A DNA stretch of 64,000 nt from Lytechinus pictus (Eukaryota): the NCBI RefSeq assembly GCF_037042905.1, contig NC_087251.1, forward strand, positions 5,954,001 to 6,018,000, given 5' to 3'. The position numbers were made by a program, and so were the translations under genes. Shown piece by piece: positions 16,279 to 24,094 of this stretch (within the stretch, counting starts at the first letter, position 1; each line of letters opens with the position of its first letter). The notes under the pieces are model-generated. The model did no database searches. It was given only the letters and a program-made list of their open reading frames with translations, and had not been told where the DNA came from.

Positions 16279-16863
16279 AGGAGAATGAAACCCTTGAAAC
16301 CAGCTTAATCCATATCAAAGAGAAAAATCAAAGAAACATATTGTTGAAAGTTTGAGGAAGATTGAATGAATAATAAGAAAGTTATGAGCATTTGAATATT
16401 GAGATCACTAATGCCATGTAGATCCTCCCATTGGCAATGCGACCAAGATCTGTGATGTCACACATGTACGACTCCCTCATTACTTTAGTACTTATTTCAC
16501 TTATATTCTCACTTTTATAGAGTCTATCACAAGGTGAGGTGTTCTCTTTATGAGAGGACAAGTACAGAGGTTTCACAATATTATATCTTTGATGAATCGT
16601 TTGTCATATGATTAGAATGAGCAAAAAGAGATGTTTTGGGGTATATTTTCAGTGTCCAAAAGGGGAGAGTTGTTCATCTGTGACATCATAGATCTTGGTC
16701 GCATTGCCAATGGGAGGATCTCCATAGCAATTAGTGATCTCGACATTCAAATGCTCATAACTCTTCTATTGCTAGTCCTATTTTACTCAAACTTTTGTTG
16801 ATCTTATTCTTTGATTTTTCTGCTTTCACAAAAGCTAACTTGCTCCAAGAGTTTCATTCTCCT
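16279..16863. mobile_element. Kolobok-type palindromic MITE
   Basis: TTAA|AGGAGAATGAAAC ... GTTTCATTCTCCT|TTAA, with long imperfect inverted arms (~180 bp). TTAA TSD with purine-purine TIR start. Confidence 0.75.
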
Positions 16864-17025: not shown

Positions 17026-17639
17026 ATTATCTCAACCCAGACAAAATACACGAGAGGCGAGTAAATGCATTTTCCGTGGAGTTTAATAAAAATTGTTTCT
17101 GAAAAGCATCTTCCAAATGATGTATACCAAAATGTAAAATGATGTGTTGTCAAATAAAGCCAACATAATATAATGCAACAATCAAAACATAATAATATAA
17201 ACGTAAAGCCTCCTGAGATGTGTCATATGCGAAAAATTAAAGTTATTAAACCAATCTCCTCAATTGACAATTAAAACAGTCCATCCACATTCATGACAAA
17301 GACACCAGTTTGTCATGTTGGCCAAATGTGGGCAACGTAAAATTCCATCTGCAAAGCTACGAAGCAAAGATTCCCGTTTGCAACACGAGCTTATGCAGGA
17401 AAACTTTTAAAACAGAAACTAGTGCTCAGAAGCCCCACCAACGGCCCTGAACTAGAATGTGAACGAGGCAACGTTAATGTTCGGTCCGAAATGGAATTCG
17501 CTGGTGGCCTCATCCAAATCGGGTGACGAACCAAGCCCCGTTCACATTATAACATGAGGAGTGGAATATACGAAATTGGTCTAAATAAATGAAAAATATT
17601 ATCTCAGGAAGCCCAAAATAAGTGAAGAATCATAATGTG
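17026..17639 (-). repeat. Split direct repeat B2 (614 bp)
   Basis: Matches 18307-18920 (offset 1281). One substitution seen (17442 C vs 18723 T). Confidence 0.95.
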
Positions 17640-17902
17640 ATAGGAAAAGGCCGAGCTCCAGCAAGGGCGAAAACACCCCCCTGAACACCTGATGATAAAT
17701 TAACTAAACTGGTAAACCAAAGTAAAATACAAAAAGGTATCCAAAATTAGGTGAACAGGTTGGATGGAATTACCTTGCGGCCCACTTTGGGTGTGCGACC
17801 AGGCTTAAGGCCCGAAGCTCACATTCAGGTTAGAATGAATAACATGAAACAAAACATCTTGACGTTGAAAATTAGTGGGGGTGACAAGGGGATGGAGGAG
17901 GG

Positions 17903-18309
17903 AAAAATACAGGAAGTATGTTGCACAAGACAGGTGAATTGAGATGGAAGATGCTTTCAAATCGACTCCACGAAGAAGAATGCTAACTTGTTAGAAATTG
18001 GCTTTTGCCCCCTCCCGAAATTACCACGTCAGCTAACGCGACGTAGCATTTTTAGCCACGCCTCCTTGTAATGTCCGAAAAATACCAAAATTCGCAACGC
18101 AACATTTTTTGGCCACGCCTCCTCGTGAAGTCCGACAAAATACCATATTTGGCATCGCAACATATCTCCGCCAGGGCAAAGGAATTCGCCTGACCAGGCC
18201 CTTTCCTTGTAAAACACCTGTTACGTACCGCTGGCGGGCTATGTTGTTGTCCAGCTAGTCTGACCTGAGATAACCTCTCATTAACTCGCTGCGCGCGTTA
18301 AGAGGTATT
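17903..18309 (-). repeat. Split direct repeat A2 (407 bp)
   Basis: Matches 23688-24094 (offset 5785). Two substitutions seen (18195, 18291). Confidence 0.95.
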
Positions 18310-18920
18310 ATCTCAACCCAGACAAAATACACGAGAGGCGAGTAAATGCATTTTCCGTGGAGTTTAATAAAAATTGTTTCTGAAAAGCATCTTCCAAATG
18401 ATGTATACCAAAATGTAAAATGATGTGTTGTCAAATAAAGCCAACATAATATAATGCAACAATCAAAACATAATAATATAAACGTAAAGCCTCCTGAGAT
18501 GTGTCATATGCGAAAAATTAAAGTTATTAAACCAATCTCCTCAATTGACAATTAAAACAGTCCATCCACATTCATGACAAAGACACCAGTTTGTCATGTT
18601 GGCCAAATGTGGGCAACGTAAAATTCCATCTGCAAAGCTACGAAGCAAAGATTCCCGTTTGCAACACGAGCTTATGCAGGAAAACTTTTAAAACAGAAAC
18701 TAGTGCTCAGAAGCCCCACCAATGGCCCTGAACTAGAATGTGAACGAGGCAACGTTAATGTTCGGTCCGAAATGGAATTCGCTGGTGGCCTCATCCAAAT
18801 CGGGTGACGAACCAAGCCCCGTTCACATTATAACATGAGGAGTGGAATATACGAAATTGGTCTAAATAAATGAAAAATATTATCTCAGGAAGCCCAAAAT
18901 AAGTGAAGAATCATAATGTG
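18307..18920 (-). repeat. Split direct repeat B1 (614 bp)
   Basis: Direct copy of B2. Abuts A2 with a 3-nt ATT overlap, reconstituting the predicted circle junction. Confidence 0.95.
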
Positions 18921-19894
18921 TTGTGGCAAAAAATGGAATGCCGCCAAACGGGATGACTCATCGTCAGCCTGCCGCTACAACACAATATGATGCCAATAGT
19001 TCAAACCATGCTGTATTTACAAGGTCCACGCTAAGAAGCTGGGAAAAGGGGGGGTGCATTAAACGAACAGGGTTGCACAATTAAACCATCTAGGAGGATT
19101 CATGCTCATTCAGTCCACTTGCGAAGAGTCTAGTGCCCTAAGATAAAGGAGAGGCGGGGGGGGGGGGGGCGGGGCCTAGTAACTAAATAGTGAAGTTTGT
19201 AGTAAGGACATGAGATCTGATGATACCACGTGTGAGTTCTGGATAAGGTATTCAGGTCATAACATCTGCTCATAAAAAAGTTCCAACTGTTCGCGACGTC
19301 CGAGCCAGCGAGTCCTCGACGGAGGTAAAACAGCTGTTACTCTAGTGATTTCGCTCCGCGACAAAGAAATCAAGTGTTCTCCTGTTCGCGGATGTATTGA
19401 GTTTTAGGACCCGGCCACGTGCCGAGTAGTGAGGGCCCGCCCCCAACTAGAGCGGGACTGCCCGCGTCAGCGAAACGTGAATTGACCCCTTCCTCTTTTA
19501 CGATTCCGTGGAATGCTGACACAACCCACGTTGAGACTCCAAATAACTGCACATGGAAGAGAGAAAAGGAAAGAAACTGCGGCACCAATTGTACATTCTA
19601 AAAAGGGGGGGGGTACATAGTTACCATAAACACGATAAGTGTAGCAAAGACCACAATCTACTAACAGTGGGCGAGCAATTCTGCCTGCGCCCATGGAACT
19701 ATTAACGGGTAAGATAACCATTGCGTCACCATGGCAACAATCGAGAGAGAGAGAGAGAGAGTAAGGTTAATATTTACTGCTCGTTAGGGGTTGTCAAAAA
19801 ACAAAAACAAATAAACATTAGGTCGATATTAAATTGTGCACAAACTGGTATTAAACATAGAAGGGTGATAAACATACTGGCAAAATTGCTTAAA

Positions 19895-20815
19895 TTAAGG
19901 GGGGAGAGGTTGTCGAATATACAATCTGTGTGTGTTGGAAGCCCAGCGCCCCATATTTTGAATGCAAACATCGGGAACACCTGCCATGGCTGCAGAAGTT
20001 GCCGCCCCAATACGGAAAGAATGGGAAGAGAAATGAGCAACGGGTAGCCCGCAAAAACTAATGGCACGCTTTAAAACTTGGCCAAATTGGTGCCTCGTTA
20101 GGGGTGACGAGTCAAAGTGACGGAAAAAGGCAGAGCCGACCGAGCTCCGCAGAGCGAGGTAATCATTTACAGCGCGAAGTGGGCATAAATACGAAACAAC
20201 ATTCTGTGGAATTAAAATCGAGCATCCACGTCCAGTTTGATCTGTTTTAGACCTCGCAATCACAATGCGCAATTTTGCTTGATTACCCATCCCTTGAATA
20301 ATAACATCTTTTTCTGATAAAGGAACGGGTTCATGTCTAGATCGAGACGTGAACTCCCCTACTCGAAGAAAACCAAAGAAAGCGATTAGAAAGGCAGCCC
20401 GAAACAATGCCAGATCATACGTATTAACGCATACGTGAGTCAATGAATTTAGGATGGATTTGAGAATAGGCAGGGTTATGGGACACCGGGTATCACGGCG
20501 AGCATTTTTCCGCCTGCACCCGTCTACCAGCCGCCGGATTACAAACGCGTCAGTCACATCAGGCCAACCCAATGTTTGCATCGTAAAAGCCAGGCCTGAT
20601 ATATATGTACTTATTGTTGCCCCCGCATACCCATTCCAGGAGAGATAAGCAATAAATTGAGCGACCTGCTCAACGTCAGGACGTATACTTATATCATAAT
20701 GATATTGCAGCCGAAACTGCTTAAACACAGACCAAGCGTTCCTATAAGTATGATGAGTGCCGGGCGCCCGCGAAGAAAACAACAGATGCTCTCTCTCTAT
20801 ATGAAGCTGCTCCAA
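19895..20815 (-). CDS. Tyrosine recombinase of the retrotransposon (306 aa, intact)
   Basis: All catalytic residues are present: FLRVGE (R), RSKTDQ (K), SHSFRIGAAT (HxxR), MGRW (W), LYIR (Y). Confidence 0.95.
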   Translation of the reverse strand: MEQLHIEREHLLFSSRAPGTHHTYRNAWSVFKQFRLQYHYDISIRPDVEQVAQFIAYLSWNGYAGATISTYISGLAFTMQTLGWPDVTDAFVIRRLVDGCRRKNARRDTRCPITLPILKSILNSLTHVCVNTYDLALFRAAFLIAFFGFLRVGEFTSRSRHEPVPLSEKDVIIQGMGNQAKLRIVIARSKTDQTGRGCSILIPQNVVSYLCPLRAVNDYLALRSSVGSAFFRHFDSSPLTRHQFGQVLKRAISFCGLPVAHFSSHSFRIGAATSAAMAGVPDVCIQNMGRWASNTHRLYIRQPLPP

Positions 20816-22463
20816 AGATGGGCGGGAAGCTTGCTGCCAGCCAGATCTGCGCCTGGTGCTAACCTGCGAAACCTGTCCATCTGAAAACGAGAGAGGGCAT
20901 CAGCCTTTTCATTGCGAGAGCCTGGCACGTAACGTGCTTTGAACATAATATTATGTTTCAAACAAAGAACTACAAGCAAACGAACCAGTTTCATTACACT
21001 AGGACATTTCGAAGTTAAGGAATTAACAACATGAACAACTGATTGATTATCTGACCAAAATAAGACCTTAGAATTAGCTAGAAGAGCCCCCCACATACGT
21101 ATACCGACTACTATTGGGAAAAGCTCTAGAAAAGCGATGGAATAATTCTTCTCCAGTATTTCAGCTGGCCATTTCCCTTGAGCCCACTTATCCTGGAAGG
21201 ATATACCAAAGCCAATGCTACCCGCAGCGTCAGTAAAGAACTGAAAATGAGCATTAGTTACCCATGTTGAGTGTGAAAACATAACTGTGCCATTGAAATC
21301 AGACAGAAACGTAAGCCAGGCCTGCATGTCCTCTTTTGCGCCGCGTGAAAGCCTTATCCGGTGGTTTGGGTGCGGACCCCTTTAGTAAGATCGATAAGTC
21401 TCCTTAGGAAGGCTCTTCCGGGAGCCACGGCTTTACACACGAAATTAAGGCTGCCAATTAGCGACTGCAACTGCCGCAACGAGAGCTTATCTTTCTTAAC
21501 AAAATCAATGAGCATTGCCTGTAACACGTTTACTTTCTCCTTGGGTACCCGAACTCTCTGCTCAGCCGCGTCGATTTCAAGCCCTAAAAATATGATAGTG
21601 GGAACGGGCCCCTCAGTCTTCTCCTCCGCTATCGGGACGCCAAAAACCTCGCACATCGCCTTAAAATGATACATCAAGGAACGACATTCCTGCCGTGTTG
21701 CGCCAACGAAAAAGAAATCATCCAAATAATGCAAAATTTGCTCTGAATTCGCAATTTCACGGCAACATGACTCAAGAAAAGTGCTAAAACGCTCAAAATG
21801 GGCACATGAAATTGAGCAGCCCATTGGCAAGCATTTATCAAAGTAATACGCGCCATCAATGCAAAACCCCAGAAGGTCAAAATCGGAGGGATTCACTGGT
21901 AGTAAGCGAAAAGCGGATTTTATATCGGTTTTTCCCATGAGAGCACTAGCTCCCAAGCGAGCAACGAGATCAACCGCCTTGTCAAATGAAGTGTAATTCA
22001 CGGAACATAAATCGGAATCAATGTGGTCATTAACCGAAGCCCCCCGAGGAGAAGATAGATGCTGAATTAGACGGAATTCTCCCGGATTTCGCTTGGGGAC
22101 GAGCCCTACCGGGGAGCAGCGAAAGTTATCGAAAGGCGGGTCTTGGAAAGGACCTGACATTCTCCCTAAACTAACTTCCTTACCAACTTTCTCCAACAGC
22201 ATGTCCCTATGCTCCCTAGCTGATTTCAAATTACGCGAGAACACAGAGCGACGCTCGCCTGTGAAACCCAATGAAAAACCCAACCTAAAACCAGAAATCA
22301 GCAAAGCTGCATTATGTTGATTATGGTGCCGTCTAAGAAATGGGAGCATGCTGCCAAGTTTAATTGGAGTTGGAGCTAGGCTTCTGTTTGGTGATTGCAG
22401 CGGCAGAGTTGCAGGCGTGTGAGCCATGCGCTGCTGAGGAGCATTTTCCGCACCGGTGAGCAT
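20797..22463 (-). CDS. Reverse transcriptase / RNase H polyprotein, split by one frameshift near 21369
   Basis: ORF 22463-21354 has DIRS-type RT motifs (KTDIKSAFR, LPMGCSIS, HYLDDFF, FLGLEID). ORF 21327-20797 has RNase H motifs (FTDAAG, LELFPIV, SDNQSVV, ADALSR). Adding one base in the G3 run at 21368-21370 fuses them (..GVRTPNHRIRLSRGAKEDMQAW..). Confidence 0.92.
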
Positions 22464-23464
22464 AACGACAGGCGGTGCGTTGGCATGACCCAGCGTTAAA
22501 GGCGAAACAGACTGGTGAGGAGCGGAAGGGGGCAGGCGCCAGGGGCCCGAATTGCCCCTTGTCTGTTGGCATATCCTGAGGATGGGAAACTACCCCGCCG
22601 AAACGACCGGTCGTATGGCCGAAAGGGCTGGTTACCCCCAAAAGACGAAAACGCTGCTCGACCGGGCGTCGAAGCTACTGTCAGCCATAGCTCGGTGTCT
22701 ATGACAGCCCAGGAACGATGTGGATGACGGGCCTGACGTAACCGAAATTGAATGTCATAGGCCCGCCAATTGAAACCCCCAAAACGCACAATAGAGCGAA
22801 CGATATCCATATACTTGAGGAGCTCGCGCGCACGCATACAGTGTCGCTCCAAGTATATAGAGGCGTAAATAATGAACGCAGATGTCCACTGTTCTATGCT
22901 GGCGATCACCGGAGCCTTGCTTTGGGGGCGAAGCATTAAAGCGGACCCGGTGGCACAAAGGCTGAAGGCCTGCAACTGGGAACTTTCCTCACTTAAGCTT
23001 TCCCTTTTTAGTAATCCACCTAACTCTACAAATTCACCTTTCCAAATCTTCTCCTTAACACTGGAAGGCACCTCCCCGCCCAAATCATCACACACACAGC
23101 TAAGCATATCTGGCTGCGCAGACAGCGTAGGAAAAGGAGGGCTGGGGGCTGGTGTAAAATTATCATGACTATTAATCCCCTCAACTACAGGGGCAGGAGG
23201 GATAGAAGGAGAAGCTTGGGATTGAATTTGAGGAATGACCGGCTCTTGTGGAGAAGTCACAAGAGGCCAGGAGCCCCCCATTGTCCCGAACTCACCGTTG
23301 GTTGTCGACGCCGAACTTCCAGCAGCTGGGCTCTGCGTAGAAGTAAAAACTTGGCCGACGTCTGTCTCGAGGTCGACAGGAGAAGGCTGGCTGGCGGCAT
23401 CTCGGACCGAACGACGAGTAGACTTCCTCTGACTTAACTTTTTGCCTGGCTTAACCTTGGGCAT
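22360..23464 (-). CDS. Gag-like ORF1 with C-terminal Cys/His zinc finger, split by one frameshift near 22530
   Basis: ORF 23464-22496 has Ngaro-like ORF1 blocks (KEKIWKGEFVEL, IEQWTSAF, WRAYDIQFR). The zinc finger CFAFNAGSCQRTACRYAHRCGKCSSAAHGSHAC lies in another frame (to 22360). Removing one base from the G5 run at 22528-22532 fuses them. Confidence 0.85.
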
Positions 23465-23687
23465 GATTGAATAATGCAGGGGTGGCGAAATTGAAAGGTC
23501 CTTAGACTAGAGCAAACTGTGACTCCTAACAGCTCAAAAGTCCAACAAACGGATATAACACAAATATACAGGTATGTTCCCAGATAAAAGAATAAATTCT
23601 CAACTGCGAAGCGTTCTTTAAGATATATGAATGGGTAAGAAAGACAATTAGAAGGATCACAACTAAAGAGTTCAACGAACGAATAAC

Positions 23688-24094
23688 AAAAATACAGGAA
23701 GTATGTTGCACAAGACAGGTGAATTGAGATGGAAGATGCTTTCAAATCGACTCCACGAAGAAGAATGCTAACTTGTTAGAAATTGGCTTTTGCCCCCTCC
23801 CGAAATTACCACGTCAGCTAACGCGACGTAGCATTTTTAGCCACGCCTCCTTGTAATGTCCGAAAAATACCAAAATTCGCAACGCAACATTTTTTGGCCA
23901 CGCCTCCTCGTGAAGTCCGACAAAATACCATATTTGGCATCGCAACATATCTCCGCCAGGGCAAAGGAATTCGCCTGACTAGGCCCTTTCCTTGTAAAAC
24001 ACCTGTTACGTACCGCTGGCGGGCTATGTTGTTGTCCAGCTAGTCTGACCTGAGATAACCTCTCATTAACTCGCTTCGCGCGTTAAGAGGTATT
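23688..24094 (-). repeat. Split direct repeat A1 (5' end; probable internal promoter)
   Basis: Copy of A2. On - it contains a ~58-bp tandem duplication, each unit with GGAGGCGTGGC (Sp/KLF-like), followed by TGACGT and CCAAT upstream of gag. The promoter role is inferred. Confidence 0.9.

What the first reader, a model, noticed from the sequence alone, without database searches (positions are those of the whole stretch)
17067..23768. Hidden complementarity between A and B repeats: candidate RNA circularisation / self-priming signal
Seen: in the sense (-) strand, the inner end of A reads GCATTCTTCTTCGTGGAGTCGATTTGAAAGCATCTTCCA (23768-23730; 17983-17945). Sequence ~40-90 nt from the 3' end of B reads TGGAAGATGCTTTTCAGAAAC...AAACTCCACGGAAAATGC (17115-17067; 18396-18348). 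These pair in three colinear blocks: a perfect 13-bp AAAGCATCTTCCA/TGGAAGATGCTTT, TTCGTGGAGT/ACTCCACGGA with one G-U, and GCATT/AATGC. The A block lies just downstream of the promoter-like motifs, near the likely RNA 5' end. Established: ITR-type DIRS1 elements have an internal complementary region, whereas split-repeat elements are described by direct repeats. Inference: 5'-3' pairing could close the RNA into a panhandle for tRNA-independent priming or template jumping. I do not know of a description of this for Ngaro elements, but could not search.
Basis: partly seen in the sequence, partly recalled or inferred. Interest (0 to 1): 0.8.

Follow-up and report, generated by a model that had tools for sequence, protein, structure and literature searches.

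The report
Conserved A-B pairing in Ngaro retrotransposons
A sea-urchin jumping gene of the Ngaro type carries, in its two kinds of terminal repeat, short stretches that can base-pair with each other around its poly(A) signal, and three related families keep such pairing with different sequences, so it is probably a working RNA signal that has not been described.

Summary
The three blocks lie exactly where stated, in both copies of A and of B. A 13-bp perfect match between A and B is rare by chance: 3 of 1000 shuffles over whole A x B, 0 of 1000 over the last 100 x 120 nt.

The element is a young Ngaro-type tyrosine-recombinase retrotransposon: A1-gag-RT/RH-YR-B1A2-X-B2.

Three other Ngaro families in the same genome (RT 47-49% identical where measured; YR 39-47%) also pair the last ~80 nt of A with B. 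Their pairing sequences are unrelated. The B side always lies within about 15 nt of the AATAAA/ATTAAA hexamer. Three more distant split-repeat families show nothing.

Two lineage-level double changes keep pairing: A-U to G-C with a G-U intermediate, and A-U to U-A. The GCATT/AATGC block is not conserved. One young subfamily carries a U-U mismatch in the 13-bp helix.

So the pairing is very probably selected, at RNA level. Its role is untested, because public RNA reads were too few to place transcript ends. I rank masking of the internal B1 poly(A) site by A2 slightly above 5'-3' cyclisation for reverse transcription. Self-priming has no support.

The parts
23688..24094 (-). A1 repeat (407 nt): promoter-like part, CCAAT box, Inr-like GCATTC, and the A block
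   Evidence: identical to 17903-18309 except 2 mismatches. Motifs.
23730..23768 (-). A block in A1: GCATT, TTCGTGGAGT, AAAGCATCTTCCA
   Evidence: Lies 42-80 nt from the 3' end of A.
19895..23464 (-). Coding part: gag-like ORF (23464-22496), RT (22589-21354), RNase H (21381-20797), tyrosine recombinase (20899-19895)
   Evidence: ORFs. RVT_1 1.2e-13; RT_RNaseH 2.6e-4 (below cut-off); Phage_integrase 6.3e-7; gag-like ORF no Pfam hit.
18307..18920 (-). B1 repeat (614 nt), internal copy, with a complete poly(A)-type signal (ATTAAA at 18368-18363, GU-rich tail)
18348..18396 (-). B block in B1 (flanks ATTAAA)
17903..18309 (-). A2 repeat, joined to B1 with 3 shared bases (AAT)
17945..17983 (-). A block in A2. 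Predicted to pair with the B1 block about 415 nt upstream.
17640..17902 (-). X: unique 263 nt between A2 and B2. Begins with the C-rich tract CCCTCCTCCATCCCC.
   Evidence: The tract is conserved in 4 families.
17026..17639 (-). B2 repeat, terminal copy
17067..17115 (-). B block in B2: TGGAAGATGCTTT, then 15 nt, then ATTAAA (17087-17082), then ACTCCACGGA, then AATGC

Best explanation
The A and B blocks are the two strands of a selected RNA duplex. The duplex is family-specific in sequence. It joins the last ~80 nt of repeat A (the R-like part around the core promoter and leader) to the part of repeat B that surrounds the poly(A) hexamer.

Most likely mechanism (inferred, not shown):
1. B holds a complete poly(A) site, so the internal copy B1 should be as strong as the terminal copy B2.
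2. Yet the replicative RNA must read through B1 to include A2-X-B2.
3. In the nascent RNA, A2 emerges 200-420 nt after B1 and pairs back onto it.
4. This puts the hexamer in a short internal loop between two helices and makes the cleavage region double-stranded. B1 is handicapped.
5. B2 has no A downstream of it and is used.
6. In the finished RNA the leader copy of the block (A1), if it is transcribed, could pair with the B2 copy and bring the RNA ends together.

Odds: that the pairing is under selection, about 0.85. That poly(A)-site masking is its main role, about 0.35.
For: SHOWN
- Complementarity between the A 3' part and the B 3' part in 4 of 4 Ngaro-clade families of this genome, with unrelated sequences.
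  - This family: 13 + 10 bp.
  - L032: GCCATTGC/GCAATGGC, ATTCC/GGAAT, CGAGGCA/TGCCTCG.
  - L033: 11 bp CACTGGGGGAT/ATCCCCCAGTG plus 10 bp TTCTCAACTT/AAGTTGAGAA.
  - L057: 11 bp GTTGTGGTTTT/AAAACCACAAC.
  
- Exact-run test, shuffles reaching the observed value: 0, 5 and 10 of 1000 for this family, L033 and L057. L032 reached 188 of 1000 on that test, but 0 of 300 on the multi-block score.
- Cross-family and other-window controls never exceed 9 nt.
- The hexamer lies 55-62 nt from the B end in all 4 families, and the B blocks lie within about 15 nt of it.
- Covariation:
  - Pair 55-929 in this family is A-U in 9, G-U in 1 and G-C in 2 of 12 sequences.
  - Pair 135-531 in the L033 group is A-U in 6 and U-A in 1 of 7 sequences. 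All 77 of 77 cells are paired, at 72% overall identity.
- Three G-U pairs are kept in a 9-locus subfamily.
- In L032 relatives the two block regions are 84-93% conserved while the rest of A is about 70%.
- Folding of the contiguous B1 tail-A2 stretch puts every helix in the minimum-energy structure in 4 of 4 families, with pair probabilities 0.67-0.97.

INFERRED: everything about poly(A)-site choice.
Against: - Transcript ends and B1 read-through were not observed. RNA reads were too few.
- The predicted accessibility of the hexamer is lower in the B1 context in only 3 of 4 families and is reversed in L033 (0.85 against 0.35). The hexamer itself mostly stays unpaired.
- In longer folds A2 pairs with B2, not B1, in L033 and L057.
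- Masking gives no reason why the A-side block sits at the far 3' end of A and not close to B1 or in X.
- If the block is also in the leader, there are two A blocks for two B blocks, and B2 could be masked too.
- A young subfamily (9 of 30 loci) carries a U-U mismatch in the middle of the 13-bp helix.
- The 32b subfamily has a C-A mismatch.
- By duplex energy, L032 (57 of 500) and L057 (314 of 500) are not significant.
- Each covariation is one event. The shuffle controls are weak: 65 of 500 and 19 of 500.
- Three distant split-repeat families lack the feature.
Confidence: 0.35

Rival explanations
1. 5'-3' cyclisation. The leader copy of the A block pairs with the B2 copy near the RNA 3' end. 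This brings the ends, and the A2 acceptor, together so that reverse transcriptase can start or switch template. It would be a split-repeat counterpart of the inverted repeats of DIRS1 and of the long-range 5'-3' pairings of Ty1, HIV-1 and hepadnaviruses (all recalled from memory).
For: - The A side is always in the last ~80 nt of A, the only part of A1 that can be transcribed.
- An Inr-like (G/T)CATTC motif lies 9-43 nt upstream of the blocks in 3 families.
- The B side is always just upstream of or around the predicted cleavage site.
- The covariation and G-U evidence is the same as for the best explanation.
- The primer of DIRS-order reverse transcription is unknown (PMC7192593, passages read).
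Against: - The transcript start is unknown.
- TATA-like motifs in L032 and L057 would put most of the block upstream of the start (my reading of the motifs).
- Cyclisation does not explain why the helices flank the hexamer so closely.
- The terminal CATT/AATG pairing is lost in two lineages.
- A jump from the RNA 5' end to its 3' end would not recreate the B|A joint.
Confidence: 0.28
2. Tf1-type self-priming. The B block is a primer-binding site. The cleaved RNA 5' end (or the RNA 3' end folded onto A2) supplies the 3'-OH for minus-strand synthesis.
For: - No tRNA-type primer site is known for this order.
- The geometry allows a leader fragment annealed at B to prime copying of nearly the whole RNA.
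Against: - A primer-copied site should be restored to perfect Watson-Crick pairing at each cycle. Instead, asymmetric loops (7 against 20 nt), three G-U pairs in 9 loci and a U-U mismatch in 9 loci persist, in both copies of B.
- In L032 only 5 nt of A would remain for strand transfer after cleavage.
- Fold-back of the 3' end onto A2 would never copy X, yet X is inherited.
Confidence: 0.07
3. No pairing function. Both regions are conserved for other reasons (core promoter in A, poly(A) signal in B). The complementarity is chance, or the decaying remnant of an old inverted duplication.
For: - Most helix positions never vary within families, which says nothing about pairing.
- Only two double changes were found.
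- Some tests are not significant: L032 on the exact run (188 of 1000) and L057 on energy (314 of 500).
- The helix-breaking subfamily 1b is young and has many copies.
Against: - Four families have four unrelated pairing sequences in the same two places.
- Combined chance is very low (0, 5 and 10 of 1000; 0 of 300).
- The double changes fall exactly on paired columns, while the flanks vary freely.
Confidence: 0.12
4. DNA-level role. The complementary ends of the single-stranded minus cDNA anneal, or the blocks are binding sites for the recombinase.
For: The same complementarity exists in the cDNA. DIRS-1 cDNA is single-stranded and mostly linear (PMC7192593, abstract and passages).
Against: - The G-U pairs of the sense strand become C-A mismatches in the minus strand.
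- The blocks lie 40-90 nt and more than 320 nt from the B|A crossover site, so they are not arms around a core.
Confidence: 0.05

Closest known systems
Ngaro retrotransposons (DIRS order) with split direct repeats A1-[ORFs]-B1A2-B2. Described in PMC9210276, PMC8547959 and PMC4157794 (passages read).
   Same: RT, RNase H and tyrosine recombinase; no methyltransferase; the A1...B1A2...B2 layout; a shared trinucleotide at the joints.
   Different: Those papers describe only direct repeats. None of the passages I read mentions A-B complementarity. This element also has a 263-nt unique stretch X between A2 and B2.
DIRS1 inverted terminal repeats and internal complementary region (PMC7192593)
   Same: Complementary sequence near the two ends of the element. 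An internal copy of the joint restores the ends.
   Different: DIRS1 has long inverted repeats, and its ICR is complementary to the termini. Here the repeats are direct and the complementarity is 20-55 nt, hidden inside A and B.
Ty1 CYC5/CYC3, HIV-1 5'-3' genome circularisation, hepadnavirus epsilon-phi pairing (all recalled from memory, not looked up)
   Same: Short long-range pairings between the leader and the 3' region of a retroelement RNA that help reverse transcription.
   Different: In those systems function was shown by mutation. Here nothing is tested, and the B side hugs the poly(A) hexamer.
HIV-1 poly(A) hairpin and other structural occlusion of a repeated poly(A) signal (recalled from memory)
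   Same: A retroelement must ignore one copy of a duplicated poly(A) signal, and RNA structure around the hexamer does this.
   Different: There it is a local hairpin within R at the promoter-proximal copy. Here it would be a 200-420 nt long-range helix formed with the downstream repeat.
Tf1-type self-priming (mentioned in PMC5006619)
   Same: The RNA 5' region is complementary to another part of the same RNA.
   Different: In Tf1 the site lies just after the 5' LTR and the pairing is perfect. Here the site is at the 3' end and tolerates mismatches.

Membership tests
Ngaro (DIRS order) | Reverse transcriptase plus RNase H | tested here: met
   RVT_1 1.2e-13 (above cut-off); RT_RNaseH 2.6e-4 (21.6 bits, below the 24.8 cut-off).
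Ngaro (DIRS order) | Tyrosine recombinase instead of a DDE integrase | tested here: met
   Phage_integrase 6.3e-7, 29.8 bits (cut-off 27.1).
Ngaro (DIRS order) | Split direct repeats A1-ORFs-B1A2-B2, with the internal repeats downstream of YR | tested here: met
   The same layout is found in L032, L033 and L057.
Ngaro (DIRS order) | No methyltransferase domain (this separates Ngaro from PAT/DIRS1) | tested here: met
   the RH and YR frames overlap, and there is no further ORF or Pfam hit between them.
DIRS1-like (ITR + ICR) | [quoted passage not shown] | tested here: not met
   the repeats are direct. Only 13 + 10 bp of inverted complementarity exist.
5'-3' cyclisation elements (Ty1 CYC5/CYC3 type) | Both partners lie inside the genomic RNA, one in the leader and one near the 3' end | tested here: inconclusive
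   18, 36 and 9 reads laid in three RNA runs. No starts or ends were reported, and B was almost uncovered.
5'-3' cyclisation elements (Ty1 CYC5/CYC3 type) | Pairing kept by compensatory change | tested here: met
   one double change in each of two families. Each is a single event.
5'-3' cyclisation elements (Ty1 CYC5/CYC3 type) | Disruption lowers reverse transcription and compensatory change restores it | not testable with these tools
   Needs experiments.
Self-priming retroelements (Tf1 type) | The first bases of the RNA are perfectly complementary to a site next to the 5' repeat | tested here: not met
   The site is in B at the 3' end. G-U pairs, a U-U mismatch and loops persist.
Structure-occluded poly(A) signal (HIV-1 type) | The hexamer or cleavage site is sequestered by structure at the copy to be ignored, and free at the copy used | tested here: inconclusive
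   The helices flank the hexamer in 4 of 4 families. Predicted unpaired probability of the hexamer is lower at B1 in 3 of 4 families and reversed in L033.

The most novel reading that the evidence does not exclude
Ngaro elements, always described by direct repeats alone, may carry a hidden functional equivalent of the DIRS1 inverted repeats. This would be a leader-to-3'-end RNA duplex that holds the ends of the genomic RNA together and is needed to start or complete tRNA-independent reverse transcription. It would be the first cis-acting replication signal defined for split-repeat tyrosine-recombinase retrotransposons, and a possible intermediate between the split-repeat and inverted-repeat architectures.
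Probability: 0.25. Interest if true: 0.8.

Novelty: new variant of a known kind. Interest (0 to 1): 0.6.

Why it matters
How tyrosine-recombinase retrotransposons start reverse transcription is not known (PMC7192593). Nor is it known how they rebuild their ends or skip their internal poly(A) site.

A short pairing with covariation support gives a concrete target. It can be mutated and compensated in RNA-processing reporters, and looked for in RNA-duplex maps. It also offers a sequence-independent mark (A 3' end pairs with the B poly(A) region) for annotating this clade.

Tried and rejected
1. Unrestricted RNAduplex of whole A against whole B chains helices over the full length (-177 kcal/mol) and is useless as a statistic. 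Two earlier scripts timed out.

2. RNA evidence. The look-up of sequencing runs listed no RNA holder among indexed runs. Three raw-read RNA runs of the same species label were laid.
- Only 18, 36 and 9 reads were laid.
- They covered A, mostly from one variant copy, and ran over its 5' end.
- B was almost uncovered, and no starts or ends were reported.
- So there is no information on the transcript start, the poly(A) site or read-through.

3. A relative with 66% identical YR (L031) and two degenerate relatives (L036, L037) have no split repeats in the fetched DNA. L059 (24% YR) has none either.

4. Metagenome scan with an RT alignment gave 80 loci with RT 40-52% identical.
- None of the 45 contigs of 4.5 kb or more shows A1/A2 and B1/B2 pairs. 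Short-read assemblies probably collapse them.
- I then made a blind comparison of 800 nt upstream of ORF1 with 2.5 kb downstream of YR, in 10 family representatives.
- It gave 2 outstanding duplexes. L066 has 16 of 17 bp, containing the same CGAGGCA/TGCCTCG core as L032. L100 scores 51.
- The other 8 were at noise level, and the search space is too large to count either way.

5. Hexamer accessibility and competition folds did not separate the B1:A2 model from the A:B2 model.

6. Rfam: no family at E up to 0.1.

7. The idea that the extreme RNA ends (CATT/AATG) pair flush was dropped. That mini-helix is lost in subfamily 2 of this family and in the 33b group.

8. Literature. Searches for Ngaro with 'split direct repeats', 'polyadenylation' and 'secondary structure', and for tyrosine recombinase with 'self-priming', and for DIRS with priming and circular found no description of A-B complementarity. 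Goodwin and Poulter 2004 is not held. Poulter and Goodwin 2005 and Poulter and Butler 2015 were not read, so a mention there cannot be excluded.


Full report
WHAT IS THERE

Window 17026-24094, - strand, is one copy of a tyrosine-recombinase retrotransposon.
- Its layout is A1 (24094-23688), a gag-like ORF, RT, RNase H, YR, B1 (18920-18307), A2 (18309-17903), a unique stretch X (17902-17640) and B2 (17639-17026).
- A1 and A2 differ at 2 of 407 positions. B1 and B2 differ at 1 of 614. The insertion is therefore young.
- Pfam finds RVT_1, RT_RNaseH (below its cut-off) and Phage_integrase. No methyltransferase is present.
- B1 and A2 share the three bases AAT. The same AAT stands at both outer ends, as expected for recombinase-mediated insertion.
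- This is the Ngaro architecture as described in PMC9210276, PMC8547959 and PMC4157794 (passages read).
- Earlier notes of this scan call the genome a sea urchin. I did not test that.

THE OBSERVATION

All quoted strings and coordinates are exact. The pairing is a 13-bp perfect helix, a 10-bp helix with one G-U, and 5 bp, all colinear.

On the B side the 13-bp block lies 15 nt upstream of an ATTAAA hexamer (17087-17082). The 10-bp block starts at the hexamer's last base.

Chance tests:
- 3 of 1000 dinucleotide shuffles reach 13 nt over whole A x whole B.
- 0 of 1000 reach it over the last 100 x 120 nt.
- 1 of 300 reach the local score.
- 0 of 500 reach the duplex energy.

RELATIVES IN THE SAME GENOME

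A DNA search found 46 matches of this family at 88-100% identity. A YR protein search found other families.

Three further families have RT and/or YR clearly related to this one, and complete split repeats:
- L032: RT 47%, YR 40% identical.
- L033: RT 49%, YR 39% identical.
- L057: an internally deleted copy, YR fragment 47% identical.

In each, the best A-B complementarity lies between the last ~80 nt of A and the part of B around an AATAAA/ATTAAA hexamer. The hexamer sits 55-62 nt from the B end.

The pairing sequences are unrelated between families:
- L032: GCCATTGC/GCAATGGC, ATTCC/GGAAT and CGAGGCA/TGCCTCG, on both sides of ATTAAA.
- L033: CACTGGGGGAT/ATCCCCCAGTG, 2 nt before AATAAA, and TTCTCAACTT/AAGTTGAGAA just after it. 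The hexamer sits in a 7-nt internal loop.
- L057: GTTGTGGTTTT/AAAACCACAAC, overlapping ATTAAA.

Statistics are mixed but favourable overall.

| Test | This family | L032 | L033 | L057 |
|---|---|---|---|---|
| Longest exact run, shuffles reaching it of 1000 | 13 nt, 0 | 8 nt, 188 | 11 nt, 5 | 11 nt, 10 |
| Local score, shuffles reaching it of 300 | 34, 1 | 49, 0 | 29, 23 | not run |
| Duplex energy, shuffles reaching it of 500 | 0 | 57 | 10 | 314 |

- For L057, a wider search of the 875-nt stretch between the B copies was not significant (23 of 60).
- Natural controls never exceed 9 nt: A of one family against B of another, other windows of the same repeats, and the sense orientation.
- Three more distant split-repeat families show nothing. 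These are L038, L039 and L040 (YR 23-33% identical over the matched parts; RT 24% or not detectable). Their values are 81 of 100, 10 of 100 and 22 of 100, and 516, 296 and 920 of 1000.

COVARIATION

Within this family (12 sequences):
- 95.7% of 346 cells are paired. Controls with the partner slid by 1-3 columns give 41.6-52.3%.
- Pair 55-929 is A-U in 9, G-U in 1 and G-C in 2 sequences. That is a double change with its wobble intermediate. It occurs in a subfamily that also lost 9 nt of the A block.
- Subfamily 2 (9 loci) has CC changed to TT on the A side. This turns two G-C pairs into G-U and keeps a 15-bp helix.

In the L033 group:
- A set of copies only 72% identical overall keeps all 11 pairs: 77 of 77 cells.
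- One pair has gone from A-U to U-A, while the flanking bases differ freely.

In L032 relatives the two block regions are 84-93% identical, while the rest of A is about 70% or unalignable.

Against:
- Each double change is one event. The shuffle controls are weak: 19 of 500 and 65 of 500.
- The 5-bp block is broken in 8 of 12 sequences.
- Subfamily 1b (9 of 30 loci, very young) has a U-U mismatch in the middle of the 13-bp helix, in both B copies.
- The 32b group has a C-A mismatch.
- The 57b group loses one terminal pair.

G-U tolerance fits pairing of the sense RNA. It does not fit the minus-strand DNA, where those pairs would be C-A.

HOW IT MAY WORK

Shown: a recurrent, family-specific complementarity between two fixed places, kept through change. 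Everything below is inference.

(a) Poly(A) masking.
- B holds the hexamer and a GU-rich tail. B1 is therefore a complete poly(A) site.
- The replicative RNA must read through that site to carry the B1|A2 joint, X and B2.
- The only difference between B1 and B2 is what follows them.
- A2 follows B1, and its block can pair back 200-420 nt.
- Folding of the contiguous B1 tail-A2 stretch contains all helices in 4 of 4 families, with pair probabilities 0.67-0.97.
- Problems: the hexamer itself stays mostly unpaired, and its predicted accessibility is lower at B1 in only 3 of 4 families. In longer folds A2 pairs with B2 in two families. And masking does not explain why the A side sits at the far end of A.

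- The A side always lies in the only part of A1 that can be transcribed.
- It lies downstream of an Inr-like (G/T)CATTC motif in three families.
- Leader-to-3'-end pairings help reverse transcription in Ty1, HIV-1 and hepadnaviruses (recalled from memory).
- The primer for the DIRS order is unknown (PMC7192593).
- Problems: the start is unmapped. TATA-like motifs in L032 and L057 would put much of the block upstream of it. And cyclisation does not explain the tight flanking of the hexamer.
- The two roles are compatible: B1:A2 could form locally during transcription, and A1:B2 in the finished RNA.

(c) Tf1-like self-priming is unlikely. Loops, G-U pairs and a mismatch persist through many copies, whereas a primer-copied site would be reset at each cycle.

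(d) Chance or pure motif conservation is unlikely, given four unrelated pairing sequences in the same places.

RNA DATA

Three raw-read RNA runs gave 18, 36 and 9 reads.
- They lie on A and carry three variants not in this copy.
- They run over the 5' end of A. B is almost uncovered.
- No starts or ends are called.

BEYOND THIS GENOME

Eighty metagenome loci with related RT were fetched. Their contigs show no split repeats, so A and B cannot be delimited.

A blind upstream-against-downstream comparison found two strong duplexes in 10 families. One contains the same CGAGGCA/TGCCTCG core as L032. The other eight were at noise level. I do not count this either way.

NOVELTY

None of the searched papers, nor the passages I read, mentions A-B complementarity or poly(A) control in Ngaro or PAT elements. 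The founding descriptions (Goodwin and Poulter 2004; Poulter and Goodwin 2005; Poulter and Butler 2015) were not available to me.

Long-range retroelement RNA pairings and structure-masked poly(A) signals are known kinds. This would be a new variant, in a group where no cis-acting replication signal beyond the repeats is known.

VERDICT

- Observation: confirmed.
- Pairing real and probably selected: about 0.85.
- Function open: masking 0.35, cyclisation 0.28, self-priming 0.07, no function 0.12, DNA-level 0.05.
- Interest: 0.6.

Noticed in passing
window 17888-17902 (-); L032 7983 onward; L033 8022 onward; L057 about 3348 onward: X begins with a C-rich tract (CCCTCCTCCATCCCC and variants) directly after the TTTTT end of A2 in all four families. 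It does not follow A1. It sits where a primer-binding site follows an LTR. PMC5006619 describes polypyrimidine tracts at that position in Skipper elements.
   Followed up: partly
L022-L030; L017-L019; L008/L009: Nine of 30 loci hold copies that end at the full end of a single B (no A2-X-B2). Three loci are solo A-X-B units. One place has a tandem B-A-X-B-A-X-B array. They look like products of recombination between the repeats.
   Followed up: partly
B repeats of the four families: The poly(A) hexamer is 62, 57, 55 and 62 nt from the 3' end of B. A GU-rich tail follows it, and a shared AATG(G)CA motif lies 10-17 nt after it. B therefore ends a fixed distance beyond the likely cleavage site.
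   Followed up: partly
window 17887-18309: RNA reads in two runs cover all of A and run out of its 5' end, all with the first mate on the - strand. They carry three variants (18066, 18202, 18291). They probably come from one other copy, transcribed either by read-through or in antisense.
   Followed up: no
L038 and L039: The distant short families share TAGCTTGT(G) near the 3' end of A, complementary to (C)ACAAGCTA at the 5' start of B. The match is 8-9 bp, with one G-U in L038. This is a different geometry from the one studied here.
   Followed up: no
window 23845-23960 (-), and the same in A2: Two to three tandem units of about 60 nt ending in GGAGGCGTGGC lie in the upstream part of A, before the CCAAT box.
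   Followed up: no
window 16321-16821: Nested inverted repeats (arms of 92 nt at 77% and 70 nt at 87% complementarity) lie just outside the B2 end of the element. They could be a small foldback element.
   Followed up: no
L066, L091, L097 and other metagenome loci: Related Ngaro-like elements in metagenome contigs carry an extra ORF of about 207 aa upstream of the ORF of about 370 aa that precedes RT.
   Followed up: no
L032 7747-7760; L057 about 2955-2971: Sequences like 5' splice sites lie at or next to the B1|A2 joint (AGGTAATG in L032, GTGAGT in the B tail of L057). U1 binding there could be another way to suppress the B1 poly(A) site.
   Followed up: no
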